This document shows, piece after piece, positions 1 to 15,175 of a stretch of 64,000 bases of DNA; positions within the stretch are counted from its first letter, which is position 1; each line of letters begins with the position of its first letter. This DNA comes from Pseudomonadota bacterium. GTDB taxonomy: Bacteria; Pseudomonadota; Gammaproteobacteria; JAKBBU01. The stretch is taken from assembly GCA_021808365.1 (NCBI GenBank), contig JAKBBU010000002.1, positions 13,703 through 77,702 of the forward strand. Reading direction: 5' to 3'. The notes under the pieces were generated by a model that made no database searches, was not told the origin of the DNA, and saw only the letters and a list, made by a program, of their open reading frames with translations. The translations under genes were made by a program, and so were the position numbers.

Positions 1-367
1 TATTAAAATCACAACTTAAAAAAGAATCTCCATAAATGACAAAAAAATTATCGCTTAACTGATCCAATGTTTTTTTAATCGCTCCAGCCGTGCCCAATAA
101 TTTTTCCCCATCATAGGAAAACTGAACATCTAAATTAAAACAATGCTGCTTTTCTTCAACATAGCTTTGTATTTGCTCACCTAGAAACCCAGTACAAATA
201 ACAACCTGCTCTATACCCTGCCGCTCGAAACATTTTAATTGATGATGGATAAACGGCTTTCCTGCAATTTCAATCATTGATTTTGGCAATGTTGCTGTCA
301 TCGGCCGCAACCGGGTTGCTAAACCGCCAGCCAAAACAACAATCGATAAAGGCTGCTTTTCTTTCAT
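1..367 (-). CDS. Sugar-phosphate nucleotidyltransferase (NTP_transferase domain), partial; the CDS continues beyond the window start
   Basis: Own reverse-strand translation from the ATG at 367..365 gives MKEKQPLSIVVLAGGLATRLRPMTATLPKSMIEIAGKPFIHH..., a classic G-x-G-x-R nucleotidyltransferase N-terminus. The ATG overlaps the TGA of the upstream GHMP kinase (ATGA). It is absent from the ORF track because it runs off the edge. Confidence 0.55.
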   Translation of the reverse strand, partial: MKEKQPLSIVVLAGGLATRLRPMTATLPKSMIEIAGKPFIHHQLKCFERQGIEQVVICTGFLGEQIQSYVEEKQHCFNLDVQFSYDGEKLLGTAGAIKKTLDQLSDNFFVIYGDSFLSCDFN

Positions 368-1344
368 TGAACCAACACCTGCGTACCCCCAAAGTCAAAT
401 TGGAAACGGACTTCCTTCATCCCTGCTCGGCTCATCGCATGACGCAAGCAGGTTTTATCTTCTGTATAAAACATTAAAAATCCGCCACCACCTGCACCAA
501 TCATTTTCCCACCTAGCGCGCCATTTTTTAGCGCCACATCATATAATTCATTGATGTGATGGTTTGACATATTGTTAGAACGTTGCTTTTTATACTCCCA
601 ATGCATATTCATTAAATCAGCAAACTCGTGCAAATTATCATGCTCTAAAGCTGTTTTAATGTTCAAACCCAATTCTTTAACAAAATGCAGATTATCGATC
701 ATGGATTGATTTCTCTGCTTACTTTGATCATCTTGTTCTTTTAAAATAGCAGAAGCAGAGCGAGTATACCCAGTAAAGAATAACATCAAATTTTCTTCTA
801 AATTATGCAGAGTCTCTTCAGAAACTTTCAAAGGATAGGCCTGTACAGCACCCGTTTTATCAAATTCAAAGCAAGTTAGACCACCATAAGCGGCAATAAA
901 TTGATCTTGTTTTCCGATAGGTTCTTTTAGAATATTTAATTCAATATGACAAGCTTCCTCTGCTAAACGGTGAGGGTGGATAATTTGTTTTTTCAACGTG
1001 TGCAAAGTCTGTAATAAGGCTGTCGTAAAACTGCCCGATGAACCTAACCCCGTACCCGCTGGTATATCAGCCATACTCGCTAATTCAAGGTAAGAAGGTT
1101 CTACACCCACGTGGCGTAGCGTTTCTCTAATGATAGGATGTTTAATATCATCAATTTGATTGACTCGTTCTAATTGCGAATATTTAACAATCAAATCATC
1201 CATAAATGTTTGGTGTGCCGTGATATACACATATTTATTAATAGCTGCCGCAATTAAAAATCCACCATGCTCTTGGTAATAAGAAGGCAGATCCGTACCG
1301 CCACCACCAATGGATATACGCAAAGGACTACGCGTAATGATCAT
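364..1344 (-). CDS. GHMP-family sugar kinase (D-glycero-D-manno-heptose 7-phosphate kinase HddA-like)
   Basis: ORF track protein; the likely true start is MIITRSPLRISIGGGGTDLPSYY (GHMP N-terminal motif). It also has the PAGTGLGSSGS and GAGGGGF motifs. Confidence 0.8.
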   Translation of the reverse strand: MIITRSPLRISIGGGGTDLPSYYQEHGGFLIAAAINKYVYITAHQTFMDDLIVKYSQLERVNQIDDIKHPIIRETLRHVGVEPSYLELASMADIPAGTGLGSSGSFTTALLQTLHTLKKQIIHPHRLAEEACHIELNILKEPIGKQDQFIAAYGGLTCFEFDKTGAVQAYPLKVSEETLHNLEENLMLFFTGYTRSASAILKEQDDQSKQRNQSMIDNLHFVKELGLNIKTALEHDNLHEFADLMNMHWEYKKQRSNNMSNHHINELYDVALKNGALGGKMIGAGGGGFLMFYTEDKTCLRHAMSRAGMKEVRFQFDFGGTQVLVQ

Positions 1345-2317
1345 AACCCGAACTCCTGTATATCTTCTCAACGATCTTTAAGGCCTGTTGTGCATCGTGC
1401 AACCCCGCATCAGGCACACGGTGCTCCTGAATATCTAACATAAAACGATCCCACTCTTGCTGCCAAGAATGATCCGCCATCGGATATTCCCAGGCATAAG
1501 TCTCTGGCGGCCCCATTTCAGGTAACATTTTGTAGAATATGATTTTTTCCACACCATAGCTTCCGCCTAAGCCACTGAGTTCAATTTTACCTTTTTTACC
1601 GTAAATTTCCAAAGAAAATGTATTTTTCCATTCCGTACAGCTCACATGAATGTGAGCTGCTTGCTGCGTTGAGGTGCGCAACAAAAGAAAAGCATTGTCA
1701 TCCACAGGCATATCCCAATAATACGTATGGGCAAACCCTTCAATCTGTTCAAATTCCCCAAAAAACCAACGAGCTAAATCAATCAAGTGCACCCCTTGAT
1801 CAATCAATTCACCACCGCCAGAAAGCACAGGATCAGCCCGCCATTCACGGTCGTAACCCAAACGACCTCCATGACCATAGCGGCCACGTAAAAACATGAG
1901 CTCACCTAACTCGCCAGCCTCTATAAGCTGCTTCGCTTTTTGCAATGATCGATGATAACGATGATTAAAACCCACACGCGCACAAAGTTTTTTCGTCGTA
2001 GCAACTTGCAATAAAGGCGTTAATTCGTGCGCAAAACGCGCTCCCGGTTTTTCAATTAAAATATGTTTACCGGATTGCAAAGCGGCCAATCCGATTTCAG
2101 CTAACAAATGATGCGACACTGAAATGATCACGACATTAATGGCTGGATCATTCACTAAATCTTGCCAATCACCATAAGATTTTGCACCAGGATACACTGC
2201 GGCTAACTGTTCAGCCCGTTTAATATCAAGATCGCAGCAAGCCCGCAATTGGCCACTGGCTAATGTTTTTGCCCGTTTTTCACCAATGAATCCACAACCA
2301 ATGATACCCACTTTCAT
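1328..2317 (-). CDS. Gfo/Idh/MocA family NAD(P)-dependent oxidoreductase
   Basis: MKVGIIGCGFIGEKRAKTL Rossmann N-terminus. The ATG at 2317 overlaps the stop of the upstream SDR gene (ATGA). Confidence 0.8.
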   Translation of the reverse strand: MKVGIIGCGFIGEKRAKTLASGQLRACCDLDIKRAEQLAAVYPGAKSYGDWQDLVNDPAINVVIISVSHHLLAEIGLAALQSGKHILIEKPGARFAHELTPLLQVATTKKLCARVGFNHRYHRSLQKAKQLIEAGELGELMFLRGRYGHGGRLGYDREWRADPVLSGGGELIDQGVHLIDLARWFFGEFEQIEGFAHTYYWDMPVDDNAFLLLRTSTQQAAHIHVSCTEWKNTFSLEIYGKKGKIELSGLGGSYGVEKIIFYKMLPEMGPPETYAWEYPMADHSWQQEWDRFMLDIQEHRVPDAGLHDAQQALKIVEKIYRSSGYDHYA

Positions 2318-13530: not shown

Positions 13531-14136
13531 TTAAACCTGACTTCGTTCTGGATTATAAGCTGCACCATAGATTTCTTCTTCAATCATCGCACAAATAATA
13601 TGGCCAAGAGTAATATGCGCTTCTTGTATTTTTGGTGTGCAATTTGAAGGTACATTCAATATATAATCACAGCACTCTTGCATTTTCCCACCCTGTTGGC
13701 CTGTAAATCCTATACGGGTTATCCCTTTTTGGCCAGCCACTTCAAAAGCTCGTAAAATATTAGCTGAATTTCCAGACGTCGAAATCCCGATAAAAATATC
13801 ACCCTGTTGCCCAATAGCTTCAAGTTGACGAGAAAAAACCTCTTCAAACGCATAATCATTGCCAATGGCTGTTAATCCTGATGTATCCGTCGTCAACGCA
13901 ATACCTGCTAAACCAGGCCGATTATAGCGTAGCCTACTCACCAACTCTGCCGCTAAATGTTGAGAATCGGCCGCGCTACCTCCATTACCAGCAAAAAACA
14001 TTTTGTTACCTGCATTTAATGCTTGCACACAAATTGTGATAATCTTTTGAATTTCATTCAAAAAAGTAGGATCTGCTTCTATTTTAGAAACTACTTCTCG
14101 TGTAGCTTTCAATTCTTTAAGAATAAATTTTTGCAT
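13531..14136 (-). CDS. gmhA: Phosphoheptose (sedoheptulose-7-phosphate) isomerase
   Basis: SIS-domain motif FFAGNGGSAADSQHLAAEL, about 200 aa. Confidence 0.85.
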   Translation of the reverse strand: MQKFILKELKATREVVSKIEADPTFLNEIQKIITICVQALNAGNKMFFAGNGGSAADSQHLAAELVSRLRYNRPGLAGIALTTDTSGLTAIGNDYAFEEVFSRQLEAIGQQGDIFIGISTSGNSANILRAFEVAGQKGITRIGFTGQQGGKMQECCDYILNVPSNCTPKIQEAHITLGHIICAMIEEEIYGAAYNPERSQV

Positions 14137-14152
14137 TTTATTTAAAAAATCC

Positions 14153-15175
14153 TTAACGCGTTAAAAATTGACTACTTGCACTGACCCGCTCGCGCCAGTA
14201 CACAAGTAAATCTTGAATAGTCTGCTCATAACTAATTTCTGGTTGCCAACCTGTATGTTCTTTGAATTTAGTTGTATCGGGCACTTGTAGATCAGCATCA
14301 ATGGGTCTAAGTCGCTCAGGATCCGTTTCGATTTTGATCTCATTTTTCATCGGTGACAAAGCCAGTAAATAATTAAGCATTTCACCAATTGTACAACTAA
14401 ACGTACCCCCAATATTGTAGTACTCTCCTGCTATGGGATTCATGGTCACGAGCATATAATACGCGCGCACAGCATCACGCACATCCGCAAAAGTACGTAG
14501 CGATTGTAAGTTACCTACTTTAATCACAGGCGGAATTAGATTTTTCTCAATCATTGCAATTTGCTTAGCAAATGTTGACTCAGCAAATACATCGCCACGG
14601 CGCGGACCCGTATGAGTAAACATTCGCGTTGTCATCACCGTCATTTGATACGCCTCTGCATAAAAACGACCGATCAAATCAGTCCCTACTTTGGAAATGG
14701 CATAAGGTGAGGCGGGATGAAAGGAACAATCTTCGTTAATCGGCAGTTTGTCCTTAGGCACACGACCAAAAACTTCTGAAGAAGCACAAACATGAACAAT
14801 CGCATTTTTTTTGTATTGCCGTATAGCTTCTAAAACTCTGGAAGTACCTTGAATATTGGTTTCGTAGGTATCCAACGGTGCCGTAAAGCTGGTTTGTGGA
14901 TAACTCTGTGCGGCCAAATGAAATACATAATCCGGTTGCGTTTGCCTTACAACTTGATTGATACTATCTGAATCACGCAAATCACCATAGATTAAATGGA
15001 TACGATCTTTTTTATTAATCCGTTCAATCAAATGACTTAAGTTATCTAAAGGGCTGCGCCAACGGCACATACCCCATATCTCCCAACCTGTATTGGCCAA
15101 CAAAAAATCAGCCAAATGCGAACCTACCATGCCGGTAATCCCAGTAATTAAAACCTGTTTTTTAGTCATCGACAA
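14153..15175 (-). CDS. gmd: GDP-mannose 4,6-dehydratase family enzyme (Gmd, or GDP-heptose 4,6-dehydratase DmhA-like)
   Basis: VLITGITGMVGSHLADFLL N-terminus, about 340 aa. Heptose context favours DmhA-like substrate specificity, which is not resolvable from sequence alone. Confidence 0.8.
   Translation of the reverse strand: MSMTKKQVLITGITGMVGSHLADFLLANTGWEIWGMCRWRSPLDNLSHLIERINKKDRIHLIYGDLRDSDSINQVVRQTQPDYVFHLAAQSYPQTSFTAPLDTYETNIQGTSRVLEAIRQYKKNAIVHVCASSEVFGRVPKDKLPINEDCSFHPASPYAISKVGTDLIGRFYAEAYQMTVMTTRMFTHTGPRRGDVFAESTFAKQIAMIEKNLIPPVIKVGNLQSLRTFADVRDAVRAYYMLVTMNPIAGEYYNIGGTFSCTIGEMLNYLLALSPMKNEIKIETDPERLRPIDADLQVPDTTKFKEHTGWQPEISYEQTIQDLLVYWRERVSASSQFLTR

What the first reader, a model, noticed from the sequence alone, without database searches (positions are those of the whole stretch)
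364..15175. O-antigen locus combining a GDP-heptose branch with Gmd, ColD-like and Fcl/ColC-like enzymes: possible 3,6-dideoxy (hexose or heptose) sugar
The sequence shows gmhA, two GHMP kinases and two sugar-1-P nucleotidyltransferases (a heptose activation route as in the Campylobacter/Yersinia 6-deoxyheptose pathways). It also shows a Gmd-family 4,6-dehydratase, a DegT-family enzyme with His replacing the Schiff-base Lys (the ColD/E1 3-dehydratase hallmark) and a GDP-fucose-synthase-family epimerase/reductase. From established pathway knowledge, Gmd + ColD + ColC gives GDP-colitose. Co-occurrence with a GDP-heptose module raises the possibility of a 6-deoxy or 3,6-dideoxy-heptose, which would be unusual. 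A separate rmlABCD set adds dTDP-rhamnose.
Basis: partly seen in the sequence, partly recalled or inferred. Interest (0 to 1): 0.5.

Follow-up and report, generated by a model that had tools for sequence, protein, structure and literature searches.

The report
Predicted 3,6-dideoxy-heptose O-antigen gene cluster
An uncultured Legionella-like bacterium carries an O-antigen gene cluster that most likely makes a seven-carbon version of the rare sugar colitose, a chemistry proven so far only in Campylobacter jejuni, but with a different set of enzymes.

Summary
The Gmd-family enzyme (14153-15175) is a GDP-heptose 4,6-dehydratase (DmhA type): 51% identical to the C. jejuni enzyme (PDB 7US5) and 30% to E. 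coli Gmd. It shares an operon with gmhA and hddC. The DegT enzyme (7381-8706) has His219 in place of the Schiff-base Lys and lacks the E1 iron-sulfur Cys motif, so it is ColD-type. It is only 41% identical to ColD and belongs to an uncharacterised long-form clade common in Legionellales and Rickettsiales. In 30 of 33 loci this clade lies near heptose-pathway genes. The third enzyme is a canonical Fcl: 51% to E. coli Fcl, 39% to ColC, with catalytic residues intact. The six genes DmhA, GmhA, HddC, Fcl, HddA-like kinase and C3-dehydratase recur together in two other, otherwise different clusters. The best reading is GDP-3,6-dideoxy-L-xylo-heptose, the heptose homologue of colitose. This route was shown in C. 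jejuni in 2023, so the chemistry is not new. The new points are the enzyme set and the host lineage. The window looks like a hybrid of a DmhA+Fcl "heptose-fucose" module and an inserted kinase/C3-dehydratase cassette. The second kinase and second nucleotidyltransferase belong to a separate, second heptose-type module that runs off the window's left edge. Nothing has been tested biochemically.

The parts
14153..15175 (-). DmhA-type GDP-D-glycero-D-manno-heptose 4,6-dehydratase (Gmd family)
   Evidence: The best PDB hit is 7US5, the C. jejuni GDP-heptose 4,6-dehydratase, at 362 bits. E. coli Gmd scores 154 bits. By blastp it is 51% identical to CjDmhA and 30% to E. coli Gmd. The NCBIfam gmd equivalog scores 174 bits, far below its 415 cutoff.
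13531..14136 (-). GmhA, sedoheptulose-7-phosphate isomerase
   Evidence: TIGR00441 scores 200.8 bits (cutoff 209), and the SIS_2 domain is present. The gene lies in an operon with DmhA and HddC. That trio is conserved in L085, L087 and about 30 metagenome loci.
12826..13527 (-). HddC-type heptose-1-phosphate guanylyltransferase
   Evidence: NF049965 (HddC) scores 247.6 bits (cutoff 300). The next best hit, mannose-1-P guanylyltransferase, scores 138 bits.
10185..11105 (+). Canonical Fcl-type GDP-4-keto-6-deoxy-sugar 3,5-epimerase/4-reductase; proposed final enzyme
   Evidence: NF047922 scores 433 bits (cutoff 500). PDB Fcl hits score 338 and 319 bits. The residues aligned with the GS(S/A)C, YAxAK and SHVIPAL segments of E. 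coli Fcl are conserved. It is 51% identical to E. coli Fcl and 39% to E. coli O55 ColC. It is 77-79% conserved next to the kinase/C3-dehydratase pair in L085 and L087.
8756..10027 (-). HddA-family heptose-7-phosphate kinase (GHMP2); the probable true start is 9862
   Evidence: The best PDB hits are heptose kinases 3K85 (135 bits), WcbL 4USK and C. jejuni 4N3O. It is adjacent to the C3-dehydratase in 26 of 33 loci. Homologues are 366-373 aa.
7381..8706 (-). Long-form ColD-type PLP/PMP-dependent GDP-4-keto-6-deoxy-heptose 3-dehydratase (C3deh)
   Evidence: His219 replaces the Lys. ColD-like segments RAHGWSR, GYNLRP and ETRP are present. The E1 segment 'DCYCAPGCDNTC' aligns to the Cys-free 'SREADEHKKY'. 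It is 41% identical to ColD and 36% to E1. NCBIfam RfbH scores 368 bits, below its 423 cutoff.
6584..7369 (-). Compact RmlD-like SDR reductase (261 aa); probably belongs to the second module, not to the 3-dehydratase
   Evidence: It carries the SGSKSGLG and YGQIK motifs. It is present in L087, and also in L093 and L097, which lack the 3-dehydratase. It is absent from L085, which has the 3-dehydratase.
5595..6587 (-). GT2 glycosyltransferase
   Evidence: PF00535 scores 82.6 bits. Its start overlaps the end of the RmlD-like gene.
4482..5444 (-). NAD-dependent epimerase/dehydratase (second module)
   Evidence: PF01370 scores 180 bits. GalE and RmlB models each score about 154 bits. It is conserved at 68-87% in L087, L093 and L097.
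3179..4480 (-). NDP-sugar dehydrogenase, UDP-glucose/GDP-mannose dehydrogenase family (second module)
   Evidence: TIGR03026 scores 295.8 bits, above its 189.8 cutoff.
2314..3192 (-). FabG-like short-chain dehydrogenase (second module)
   Evidence: PF00106 scores 180 bits.
1328..2332 (-). GFO/IDH/MocA oxidoreductase (second module)
   Evidence: PF22725 scores 105 bits and PF01408 68 bits.
364..1371 (-). Second HddA-family kinase (GHMP1)
   Evidence: Best PDB hits are 3K85 (169 bits) and WcbL (162 bits). NF049969 scores 162 bits.
1..365 (-). 5' part of a second sugar-1-P nucleotidyltransferase, cut by the window edge
   Evidence: The reading frame is visible. The full gene is 240 aa in L081. 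It is followed there by a SIS isomerase, a GmhB-like HAD phosphatase and a transaldolase.
15505..17061 (+). Wzm/Wzt ABC-2 polysaccharide exporter
   Evidence: NF050109 scores 229 bits and NF050108 285 bits; PF01061 and PF00005 are present.
17033..20388 (-). rmlB-rmlD-rmlC-rmlA (dTDP-L-rhamnose)
   Evidence: TIGR01181 scores 468 bits and TIGR01214 323 bits, both above cutoff. PF00908 scores 236 bits and PF00483 269 bits.
11420..12748 (+). 442-aa hydrophilic protein with no family match; an insertion, not a pathway component
   Evidence: It has no Pfam or NCBIfam hit. The region is about 33% GC. L087 and L085 carry other genes at this position.

Best explanation
The cluster is an ABC-transporter-dependent O-polysaccharide locus of an uncultured Legionellales-like gammaproteobacterium. 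It builds a GDP-activated 3,6-dideoxy-heptose.

Proposed route; every step is inferred from homology and gene context:
1. Sedoheptulose-7-P is isomerised by GmhA.
2. The product is phosphorylated at C1 by an HddA-family GHMP kinase.
3. It is dephosphorylated at C7 by a GmhB-like phosphatase encoded just beyond the window.
4. [quoted passage not shown]
5. The DmhA-type dehydratase makes GDP-6-deoxy-4-keto-D-lyxo-heptose.
6. The ColD-type enzyme uses PMP, regenerated from L-glutamate, with His219 as the base and no iron-sulfur cluster or E3 reductase. [quoted passage not shown]
7. The canonical Fcl enzyme epimerises C5 and reduces C4. [quoted passage not shown]
8. A glycosyltransferase adds the sugar to a polymer that also contains rhamnose.

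The stereochemistry of the last step is the least certain part. Fcl may also act directly on the DmhA product to give some GDP-6-deoxy-L-galacto-heptose.

In evolutionary terms the locus looks like a DmhA-GmhA-HddC+Fcl module into which a kinase/3-dehydratase cassette was inserted.
For: - DmhA identity: 362 bits and 51-52% identity to C. jejuni 7US5, against 154 bits and 30% to Gmd.
- It is in an operon with gmhA and hddC.
- The C3-dehydratase has His in place of Lys, ColD motifs and no E1 Cys cluster. This holds in all 33 clade members examined.
- Both kinases hit heptose kinases best.
- No manB/manC was found among the window ORFs screened, and no E3-like reductase was found in the cluster region.
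- The six genes co-occur in L087 (C3deh 85%) and in L085 (81%). L085 has a Wzx-type background, no RmlD-like gene and no second module. There Fcl is the only reductase near the 3-dehydratase.
- Of 33 C3deh-clade loci, 30 have heptose genes within 10 kb: an HddA-like kinase in 26 and DmhA in 15.
- DmhA and C3deh are directly adjacent in L014, L015, L113, L132, L136 and others.
- Precedent: the same four-step chemistry was reconstituted in C. jejuni. There, C4-reductases and a C3/C5-epimerase accepted 3-deoxy substrates (PMC10440746).
Against: - No enzyme here has been assayed.
- C3deh is only 41% identical to ColD and lies outside the 62-67% band of the characterised C. jejuni enzymes.
- The Fcl is closer to true Fcl (51%) than to ColC (39%).
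- In the closest DmhA relatives, this Fcl type occurs without any 3-dehydratase: 7 of 24 loci had canonical Fcl, 5 had C3deh and none had both.
- The usual partners of the C3deh clade are two other Fcl-family SDRs, present in 23 of 33 loci. The window lacks them. Whether a canonical Fcl accepts a 3-deoxy-4-keto-heptose is therefore unknown.
- In 14 Legionellales loci no DmhA lies within 10 kb of C3deh.
- HddC, GmhA, Fcl and both kinases all score below NCBIfam equivalog cutoffs.
Confidence: 0.55

Rival explanations
1. There are two separate heptose products. [quoted passage not shown] The 3-dehydratase product is finished by another reductase, such as the RmlD-like 261-aa SDR immediately downstream, giving a D-series 3,6-dideoxy-heptose.
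For: Canonical Fcl (66-73%) accompanies DmhA-GmhA-HddC without C3deh in L089, L091, L093, L095, L099, L104 and L105. The RmlD-like gene starts 11 bp after the C3deh stop and has intact SDR motifs. The Fcl is an Fcl orthologue, not a ColC orthologue.
Against: L085 has C3deh and Fcl but no RmlD-like gene. L093 and L097 have the RmlD-like gene with the second module but no C3deh. The RmlD-like enzyme therefore tracks the other module. If the two enzymes compete for the same 4-keto intermediate, both products could form, so this rival partly overlaps the main explanation.
Confidence: 0.2
2. The ColD-type enzyme serves the second nucleotide-sugar module (GHMP1, the second nucleotidyltransferase, a SIS isomerase, a HAD phosphatase and a transaldolase). 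The 320-aa epimerase/dehydratase would act as the 4,6-dehydratase, so the dideoxy sugar would not come from the DmhA branch.
For: C3deh lies in the same minus-strand gene run as the second module. The 4482-5444 product scores equally as RmlB-like dehydratase and as GalE.
Against: L085 has C3deh without any second-module gene. L093 and L097 have the second module without C3deh. C3deh is directly adjacent to DmhA in several lineages.
Confidence: 0.08
3. This is a hexose route. The Gmd-family enzyme acts on GDP-mannose supplied from elsewhere in the genome, and the three enzymes make ordinary GDP-L-colitose and/or GDP-L-fucose.
For: The enzyme families are the same as in colitose synthesis. From my own knowledge, not checked here, DmhA-type enzymes can turn over GDP-mannose in vitro. 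The HddC-like enzyme also matches the mannose-1-P guanylyltransferase model at 138 bits.
Against: The dehydratase is 51% identical to the heptose enzyme and 30% to Gmd. It sits in an operon with gmhA and hddC. An HddA-family kinase is adjacent to C3deh. No manB/manC was found among the window ORFs screened.
Confidence: 0.07
4. The DegT-family enzyme is a C4 aminotransferase that makes a 4-amino-4,6-dideoxy-heptose. Public annotations of relatives read 'perosamine synthase'.
For: The Aquicella siphonis homologue is annotated as GDP-perosamine synthase. Perosamine synthases are the next-best PDB hits at 189 bits.
Against: The Schiff-base Lys is replaced by His in all 33 clade members. PDB 2R0T, the ColD variant carrying Lys at this position, shows which residue is equivalent. 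From my own knowledge, that His-to-Lys change is what gives ColD aminotransferase activity.
Confidence: 0.03

Closest known systems
C. jejuni HS:5/HS:11/HS:45 GDP-3,6-dideoxy-heptose pathway (Ghosh, Xiang, Raushel 2023, PMC10440746)
   Same: The precursor genes are the same (hddC, gmhA, hddA). The GDP-heptose 4,6-dehydratase is the same type (51% identity to 7US5). A PLP-dependent ColD-type C3-dehydratase follows, and the final reduction is by an Fcl-superfamily enzyme. [quoted passage not shown]
   Different: The C. jejuni C3-dehydratases are 62-67% identical to ColD. The window enzyme is 41% identical, is about 50 aa longer and belongs to a separate clade. C. jejuni uses a separate cupin C5-epimerase plus a reductase-only SDR, whereas here a single canonical bifunctional Fcl is the only candidate. 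The polymer is exported by Wzm/Wzt as an O-polysaccharide rather than as a capsule, and the host is a Legionellales-like environmental bacterium.
GDP-L-colitose pathway: Gmd, ColD, ColC (E. coli O55, Yersinia pseudotuberculosis)
   Same: The three-enzyme logic is the same: 4,6-dehydration, PMP-dependent C3 deoxygenation with a catalytic His and no iron-sulfur cluster, then C5 epimerisation and C4 reduction by an Fcl-family enzyme.
   Different: The substrate is predicted to be a GDP-heptose rather than GDP-mannose. The dehydratase is DmhA-type (30% to Gmd). The last enzyme is an Fcl orthologue (51%), not a ColC orthologue (39%).
CDP-ascarylose E1/E3 system (RfbH/AscC with AscD)
   Same: The window enzyme has E1-like length and N-terminal architecture. 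The RfbH model aligns over its full length at 368 bits, and His replaces the Lys.
   Different: It has no [2Fe-2S] Cys motif, and no E3 reductase gene was found in the cluster region. The score is below the RfbH cutoff, and the neighbouring enzymes are GDP-type, not CDP-type.
6-deoxy-heptose pathways (Y. pseudotuberculosis DmhA/DmhB; Burkholderia WcbK/WcbL; C. jejuni HS:23/36)
   Same: They share GmhA, an HddA-family kinase (WcbL is among the best PDB hits), HddC and a DmhA-type dehydratase.
   Different: Those pathways stop at 6-deoxy-heptoses and have no C3-dehydratase. Here a ColD-type enzyme is added and the reductase is a canonical Fcl.

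Membership tests
ColD-type GDP-4-keto-6-deoxy-sugar 3-dehydratase | DegT/aspartate-aminotransferase fold with His replacing the PLP Schiff-base Lys (ColD His188) | tested here: met
   PF01041 scores 315 bits. S218-H219-H220 aligns with ColD S187-H188-H189, and the mutant PDB entries mark the position. The His is conserved in all 33 clade loci.
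ColD-type GDP-4-keto-6-deoxy-sugar 3-dehydratase | No [2Fe-2S] cluster and no separate reductase partner | tested here: met
   No Cys occurs in the segment aligned to the E1 segment DCYCAPGCDNTC. No ferredoxin-reductase-like gene was seen in the cluster region.
ColD-type GDP-4-keto-6-deoxy-sugar 3-dehydratase | Sequence clustering with characterised ColD enzymes (the C. jejuni enzymes are 62-67% identical to ColD) | tested here: not met
   It is 41% identical to E. coli O55 ColD over 364 aa. It forms a separate long-form clade of 427-447 aa.
ColD-type GDP-4-keto-6-deoxy-sugar 3-dehydratase | L-glutamate-dependent PMP regeneration, with release of ammonia and a 3-deoxy-4-keto product | not testable with these tools
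   This needs an enzyme assay.
E1 (RfbH/AscC) CDP-6-deoxy-4-hexulose 3-dehydrase | [2Fe-2S]-binding Cys motif and an E3 partner | tested here: not met
   The motif is absent. NCBIfam RfbH scores 367.7 bits, below its 423 cutoff. No E3-like gene was found in the cluster region.
DmhA (GDP-D-glycero-D-manno-heptose 4,6-dehydratase) | Closer to characterised heptose dehydratases than to GDP-mannose 4,6-dehydratase | tested here: met
   It scores 362 bits and 51% identity to 7US5, against 154 bits and 30% to E. coli Gmd. The gmd equivalog scores 174 bits against a 415 cutoff.
DmhA (GDP-D-glycero-D-manno-heptose 4,6-dehydratase) | Genetic linkage to GDP-heptose synthesis genes | tested here: met
   DmhA-GmhA-HddC form a contiguous operon here and in about 30 related loci.
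DmhA (GDP-D-glycero-D-manno-heptose 4,6-dehydratase) | Substrate preference for GDP-heptose over GDP-mannose | not testable with these tools
   This needs kinetic measurements.
GDP-L-fucose synthase (Fcl) | NCBIfam equivalog score, and the catalytic Ser/Tyr/Lys triad plus the Cys/His epimerisation pair | tested here: inconclusive
   NF047922 scores 433 bits, below its 500 cutoff. The residues aligned with the GS(S/A)C, YAxAK and SHVIPAL segments of E. coli Fcl are conserved. The assignment of catalytic roles to Ser107, Cys109, Tyr136, Lys140 and His179 comes from my own knowledge. It is 51% identical to E. coli Fcl.
GDP-L-colitose synthase (ColC) | Orthology to ColC rather than to Fcl | tested here: not met
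   It is 39% identical to E. coli O55 ColC and 51% to Fcl. ColC and Fcl are themselves 39% identical.
C. jejuni-type GDP-3,6-dideoxy-heptose pathway | hddC, gmhA, hddA, a C4,6-dehydratase and a PLP C3-dehydratase in one cluster | tested here: met
   All five functions are present at family level.
C. jejuni-type GDP-3,6-dideoxy-heptose pathway | A separate cupin-type C5-epimerase plus a reductase-only C4-reductase | tested here: not met
   The only cupin epimerase is RmlC, inside the rml operon. The only Fcl-family gene is a canonical bifunctional type.
[quoted passage not shown] | GmhA, HddA, GmhB and HddC | tested here: met
   GmhA scores 200.8 bits and HddC 247.6 bits; there are two HddA-family kinases. 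A GmhB-like HAD phosphatase (PRK08942, 110.8 bits) lies just outside the window in L081. All except the generic families score below equivalog cutoffs.

The most novel reading that the evidence does not exclude
This would be the first 3,6-dideoxy-heptose ("heptose-colitose") O-antigen outside Campylobacter. It would be made by a previously uncharacterised long-form ColD clade that is widespread in amoeba-associated Legionellales (including cultured Aquicella siphonis) and Rickettsiales. In this lineage, a canonical bifunctional Fcl would have taken over the finishing steps from the clade's usual pair of dedicated SDRs. That would be a natural pathway hybrid, and it would show that Fcl tolerates both the C7 extension and the 3-deoxy substrate. 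A second, redox-tailored NDP-heptose branch in the same locus may add another unusual heptose derivative.
Probability: 0.4. Interest if true: 0.5.

Novelty: new variant of a known kind. Interest (0 to 1): 0.38.

Why it matters
Rare deoxy-heptoses are strong serotype and immune-recognition determinants. In the paper library I could search, 3,6-dideoxy-heptoses appear only in C. jejuni capsule work.

If the prediction holds, it has four consequences:
- This sugar class extends to the O-antigens of intracellular, amoeba-associated Legionellales and Rickettsiales.
- A large family is renamed. Hundreds of environmental sequences are currently annotated as "CDP-6-deoxy-D-xylo-4-hexulose-3-dehydrase" or "perosamine synthase".
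- There would be a natural example of pathway evolution by cassette insertion, from Fcl-type 6-deoxy to ColD-plus-Fcl 3,6-dideoxy. This parallels the fucose/colitose relationship in hexoses.
- A compact enzyme set, with one bifunctional Fcl replacing an epimerase plus a reductase, would be available for chemo-enzymatic synthesis of GDP-dideoxyheptoses.

Tried and rejected
- **E1-type mechanism.** Rejected. The iron-sulfur Cys motif is absent and no E3 gene was found in the cluster region.
- **Coxiella burnetii O-antigen heptose genes as a model.** I recalled a GHMP-type module there. The paper shows that CBU0678 is an HldE-like bifunctional enzyme, so this parallel was dropped. A 2026 Coxiella preprint added nothing relevant.
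- **RmlD-like SDR as the dedicated reductase for C3deh.** Made unlikely by L085, L093 and L097.
- **Organism name.** The exact-sequence cluster look-up returned no names. Only the MAG accessions are known: GCA_027326615.1 and GCA_027437465.1.
- **Promoter/terminator scan of 5300-15600.** Site counts matched the shuffled controls, so no operon boundaries could be drawn from it.
- **C. jejuni DmhA structure paper (PMC9623766).** Not held, so residue-level determinants of heptose specificity could not be checked.

Full report
**1. What is in the sequence**

ORF listing and Pfam/NCBIfam scans confirm a polysaccharide locus.

One run of genes lies on the minus strand, listed here from high to low coordinates:
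- A Gmd-family dehydratase (14153-15175), gmhA (13531-14136) and an HddC-type nucleotidyltransferase (12826-13527) form one operon.
- A second run follows:
  - a GHMP kinase (8756-10027);
  - a DegT-family enzyme (7381-8706);
  - a compact RmlD-like SDR (6584-7369);
  - a GT2 glycosyltransferase;
  - an epimerase/dehydratase;
  - an NDP-sugar dehydrogenase;
  - a FabG-like SDR;
  - a GFO-family oxidoreductase;
  - a second GHMP kinase (364-1371);
  - the start of a second nucleotidyltransferase, cut by the window edge (1-365).

On the plus strand lie an Fcl-family gene (10185-11105) and a 442-aa protein with no family match. The Fcl gene is transcribed divergently from the kinase.

To the right are wzm/wzt, rmlBDCA and glmS.

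The same arrangement is found in four independent assemblies of the same organism (L081-L084). These include the NCBI MAGs GCA_027326615.1 and GCA_027437465.1.

L081 shows that the cluster continues to the left of the window. It adds the rest of the nucleotidyltransferase, a divergent SIS isomerase, a GmhB-like HAD phosphatase and a transaldolase. Housekeeping nifU/iscS genes follow.

**2. The three key enzymes**

*Dehydratase.* Its best solved relative is the C. jejuni GDP-D-glycero-D-manno-heptose 4,6-dehydratase 7US5, at 362 bits and 51-52% identity. E. coli Gmd scores 154 bits and 30%. The enzyme fails the gmd equivalog model (174 bits against a 415 cutoff). It is DmhA-type.

*PLP enzyme.* S218-H219-H220 aligns with ColD S187-H188-H189. 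The H188N and H188K mutant PDB entries mark the position. The segment where E1 carries its cysteines (DCYCAPGCDNTC) aligns to the cysteine-free SREADEHKKY. The ColD-like segments RAHGWSR, GYNLRP and ETRP are present. It is therefore ColD-type in mechanism. However, it is only 41% identical to ColD and 36% to E1, and it has E1-like length (441 aa).

*Fcl-family enzyme.* It is 51% identical to E. coli Fcl and 39% to E. coli O55 ColC. I took both reference sequences from the annotated O55:H7 genome. The residues aligned with the GS(S/A)C, YAxAK and SHVIPAL segments of E. coli Fcl are conserved. From my own knowledge, these segments hold the catalytic triad and the epimerisation pair.

*Kinases.* Both GHMP kinases match heptose-7-phosphate kinases best: 3K85, WcbL and C. 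jejuni 4N3O.

*Other genes.* No manB/manC was found among the window ORFs I screened. These were all ORFs of at least 100 aa up to 22283 and ten of the larger ORFs between 22456 and 43469. No E3-like reductase was seen in the cluster region.

**3. Comparative context**

A protein search shows that the PLP enzyme belongs to a large uncharacterised clade. It has hundreds of environmental sequences at 65-85% identity. Its one cultured member is in Aquicella siphonis, and annotations read "CDP-6-deoxy-D-xylo-4-hexulose-3-dehydrase" or "perosamine synthase".

The two closest loci keep the same six genes: DmhA, GmhA, HddC, Fcl, kinase and C3-dehydratase.
- L087 (85%) has the same architecture as the window, including the second module.
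- L085 (81%) has a Wzx-type background, no RmlD-like gene and no second module. There Fcl is the only reductase near the 3-dehydratase.

Across 33 independent loci of the clade:
- 30 have a heptose-pathway gene within 10 kb: an HddA-like kinase in 26 and DmhA in 15. Some of the DmhA cases were found with a DmhA query, so that count is biased upward.
- 23 carry one or both of two distant Fcl-family SDRs. SDR-A is about 322 aa and SDR-B about 340-350 aa. They are 70-84% conserved between Legionellales and Rickettsiales and 24-28% identical to Fcl and ColC.
- Only the window, L085 and L087 have a canonical Fcl, and these three lack SDR-A and SDR-B.

The closest DmhA relatives (77-83%) tell the converse story. 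They mostly show DmhA-GmhA-HddC plus a canonical Fcl (66-73%) with no 3-dehydratase. Of 24 metagenome loci with at least 6 kb of flank on each side, 7 had canonical Fcl, 5 had a C3-dehydratase and none had both.

L093 and L097 combine the DmhA+Fcl module with the RmlD-like gene and the second module, again without the 3-dehydratase.

The window therefore looks like a hybrid. A "heptose-fucose" module (DmhA+Fcl) has received the kinase/3-dehydratase cassette that elsewhere sits next to wzm/wzt.

**4. Most likely function**

[quoted passage not shown] DmhA makes the 4-keto-6-deoxy intermediate. The ColD-type enzyme removes the 3-OH. [quoted passage not shown]

All steps are inferred. The final stereochemistry, and whether Fcl also diverts some intermediate to 6-deoxy-L-galacto-heptose, are open questions.

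I put about 0.55 on a 3,6-dideoxy-heptose finished by Fcl. Rivals:
- Two heptose products, with a different reductase finishing the 3-deoxy branch (0.2).
- The 3-dehydratase serves the second module (0.08). L085, L093 and L097 argue against this.
- A hexose colitose/fucose route (0.07).
- Aminotransferase activity (0.03).

**5. Relation to what is known**

The route was reconstituted for C. jejuni HS:5 and HS:11 (PMC10440746). The steps there are a C4,6-dehydratase, a PLP C3-dehydratase 62-67% identical to ColD, a cupin C5-epimerase and a C4-reductase. [quoted passage not shown]

In the searchable library, 3,6-dideoxy-heptoses appear only in that group's C. jejuni papers.

The present cluster shares the logic, the precursor genes and the dehydratase type. 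It differs in three ways:
- The C3-dehydratase belongs to a different clade.
- One canonical bifunctional Fcl stands in for an epimerase plus a reductase.
- The host and the export system are different.

I class it as a new variant of a known kind.

**6. The second module**

The second kinase and nucleotidyltransferase belong with a divergent SIS isomerase, a GmhB-like phosphatase and a transaldolase. With them go a GFO oxidoreductase, a FabG-like SDR, an NDP-sugar dehydrogenase, an epimerase/dehydratase and the RmlD-like SDR.

This looks like a second, redox-tailored NDP-heptose (or related sugar) branch. I could not assign its product.

**7. Verdict**

The "unusual" claim is tempered by the 2023 C. 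jejuni precedent. Interest is moderate at 0.38. The work gives a solid, testable prediction, a family re-annotation and a neat case of pathway evolution, but it is not a new kind of system.

Noticed in passing
window 1-5444 (-), continuing beyond the left edge (L081 17363-20953): This looks like a second complete heptose-type activation module. It has an HddA-family kinase, a MurU/HddC-like nucleotidyltransferase, a divergent SIS isomerase (60 bits to GmhA), a GmhB-like HAD phosphatase and a transaldolase. With them are a GFO oxidoreductase, a FabG-like SDR, an NDP-sugar dehydrogenase and an epimerase/dehydratase. The module is conserved in L087 and, at least in part, in L093 and L097, where the contigs end inside it. 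Its product is unknown.
   Followed up: partly
window 11420-12748 (+): A 442-aa hydrophilic protein with no Pfam or NCBIfam match sits in a patch of about 33% GC inside the sugar cluster. It has an acidic stretch near its C-terminus. L087 and L085 carry other genes at this position. It may be a horizontally inserted gene, possibly effector-like.
   Followed up: no
L089, L091, L093, L095, L099, L104, L105 and others (metagenome loci): Many environmental clusters pair DmhA-GmhA-HddC with a canonical Fcl (66-73% to the window's) and have no 3-dehydratase. This predicts GDP-6-deoxy-L-galacto-heptose made by a true Fcl. I know of no characterised example of that combination.
   Followed up: partly
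L009 11320-13295; L013 8642-11810; L086 11318-12286 and 19221-20234: Two distant Fcl-family SDRs (about 322 aa and about 340-350 aa) travel with the long-form ColD clade. They are 70-84% identical between Legionellales and Rickettsiales loci, which suggests horizontal transfer of the whole cassette between these intracellular lineages.
   Followed up: partly
window 8756-10027 (-): The 423-aa kinase ORF is probably over-extended. Homologues are 366-373 aa, and Met56 (coordinate 9862) precedes the conserved N-terminus. That would leave a 322-bp divergent intergenic region shared with the Fcl gene.
   Followed up: partly
window 22456-27606 (+): A 1716-aa protein with a NACHT/STAND NTPase domain and HEAT repeats lies directly after glmS.
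   Followed up: no
window 40035-43469 (-): lpxB is followed by a DegT aminotransferase (421 bits) and a GFO-family oxidoreductase. From my own knowledge this resembles a GnnB/GnnA pair, which would imply a 2,3-diamino-2,3-dideoxyglucose lipid A backbone.
   Followed up: no
window 37146-39239 (-) and L085 19292-21284: An E1-dehydrogenase alpha/beta (transketolase-like) gene pair lies near the polysaccharide locus in both the window and L085. This hints at a shared chromosomal neighbourhood in related organisms.
   Followed up: no
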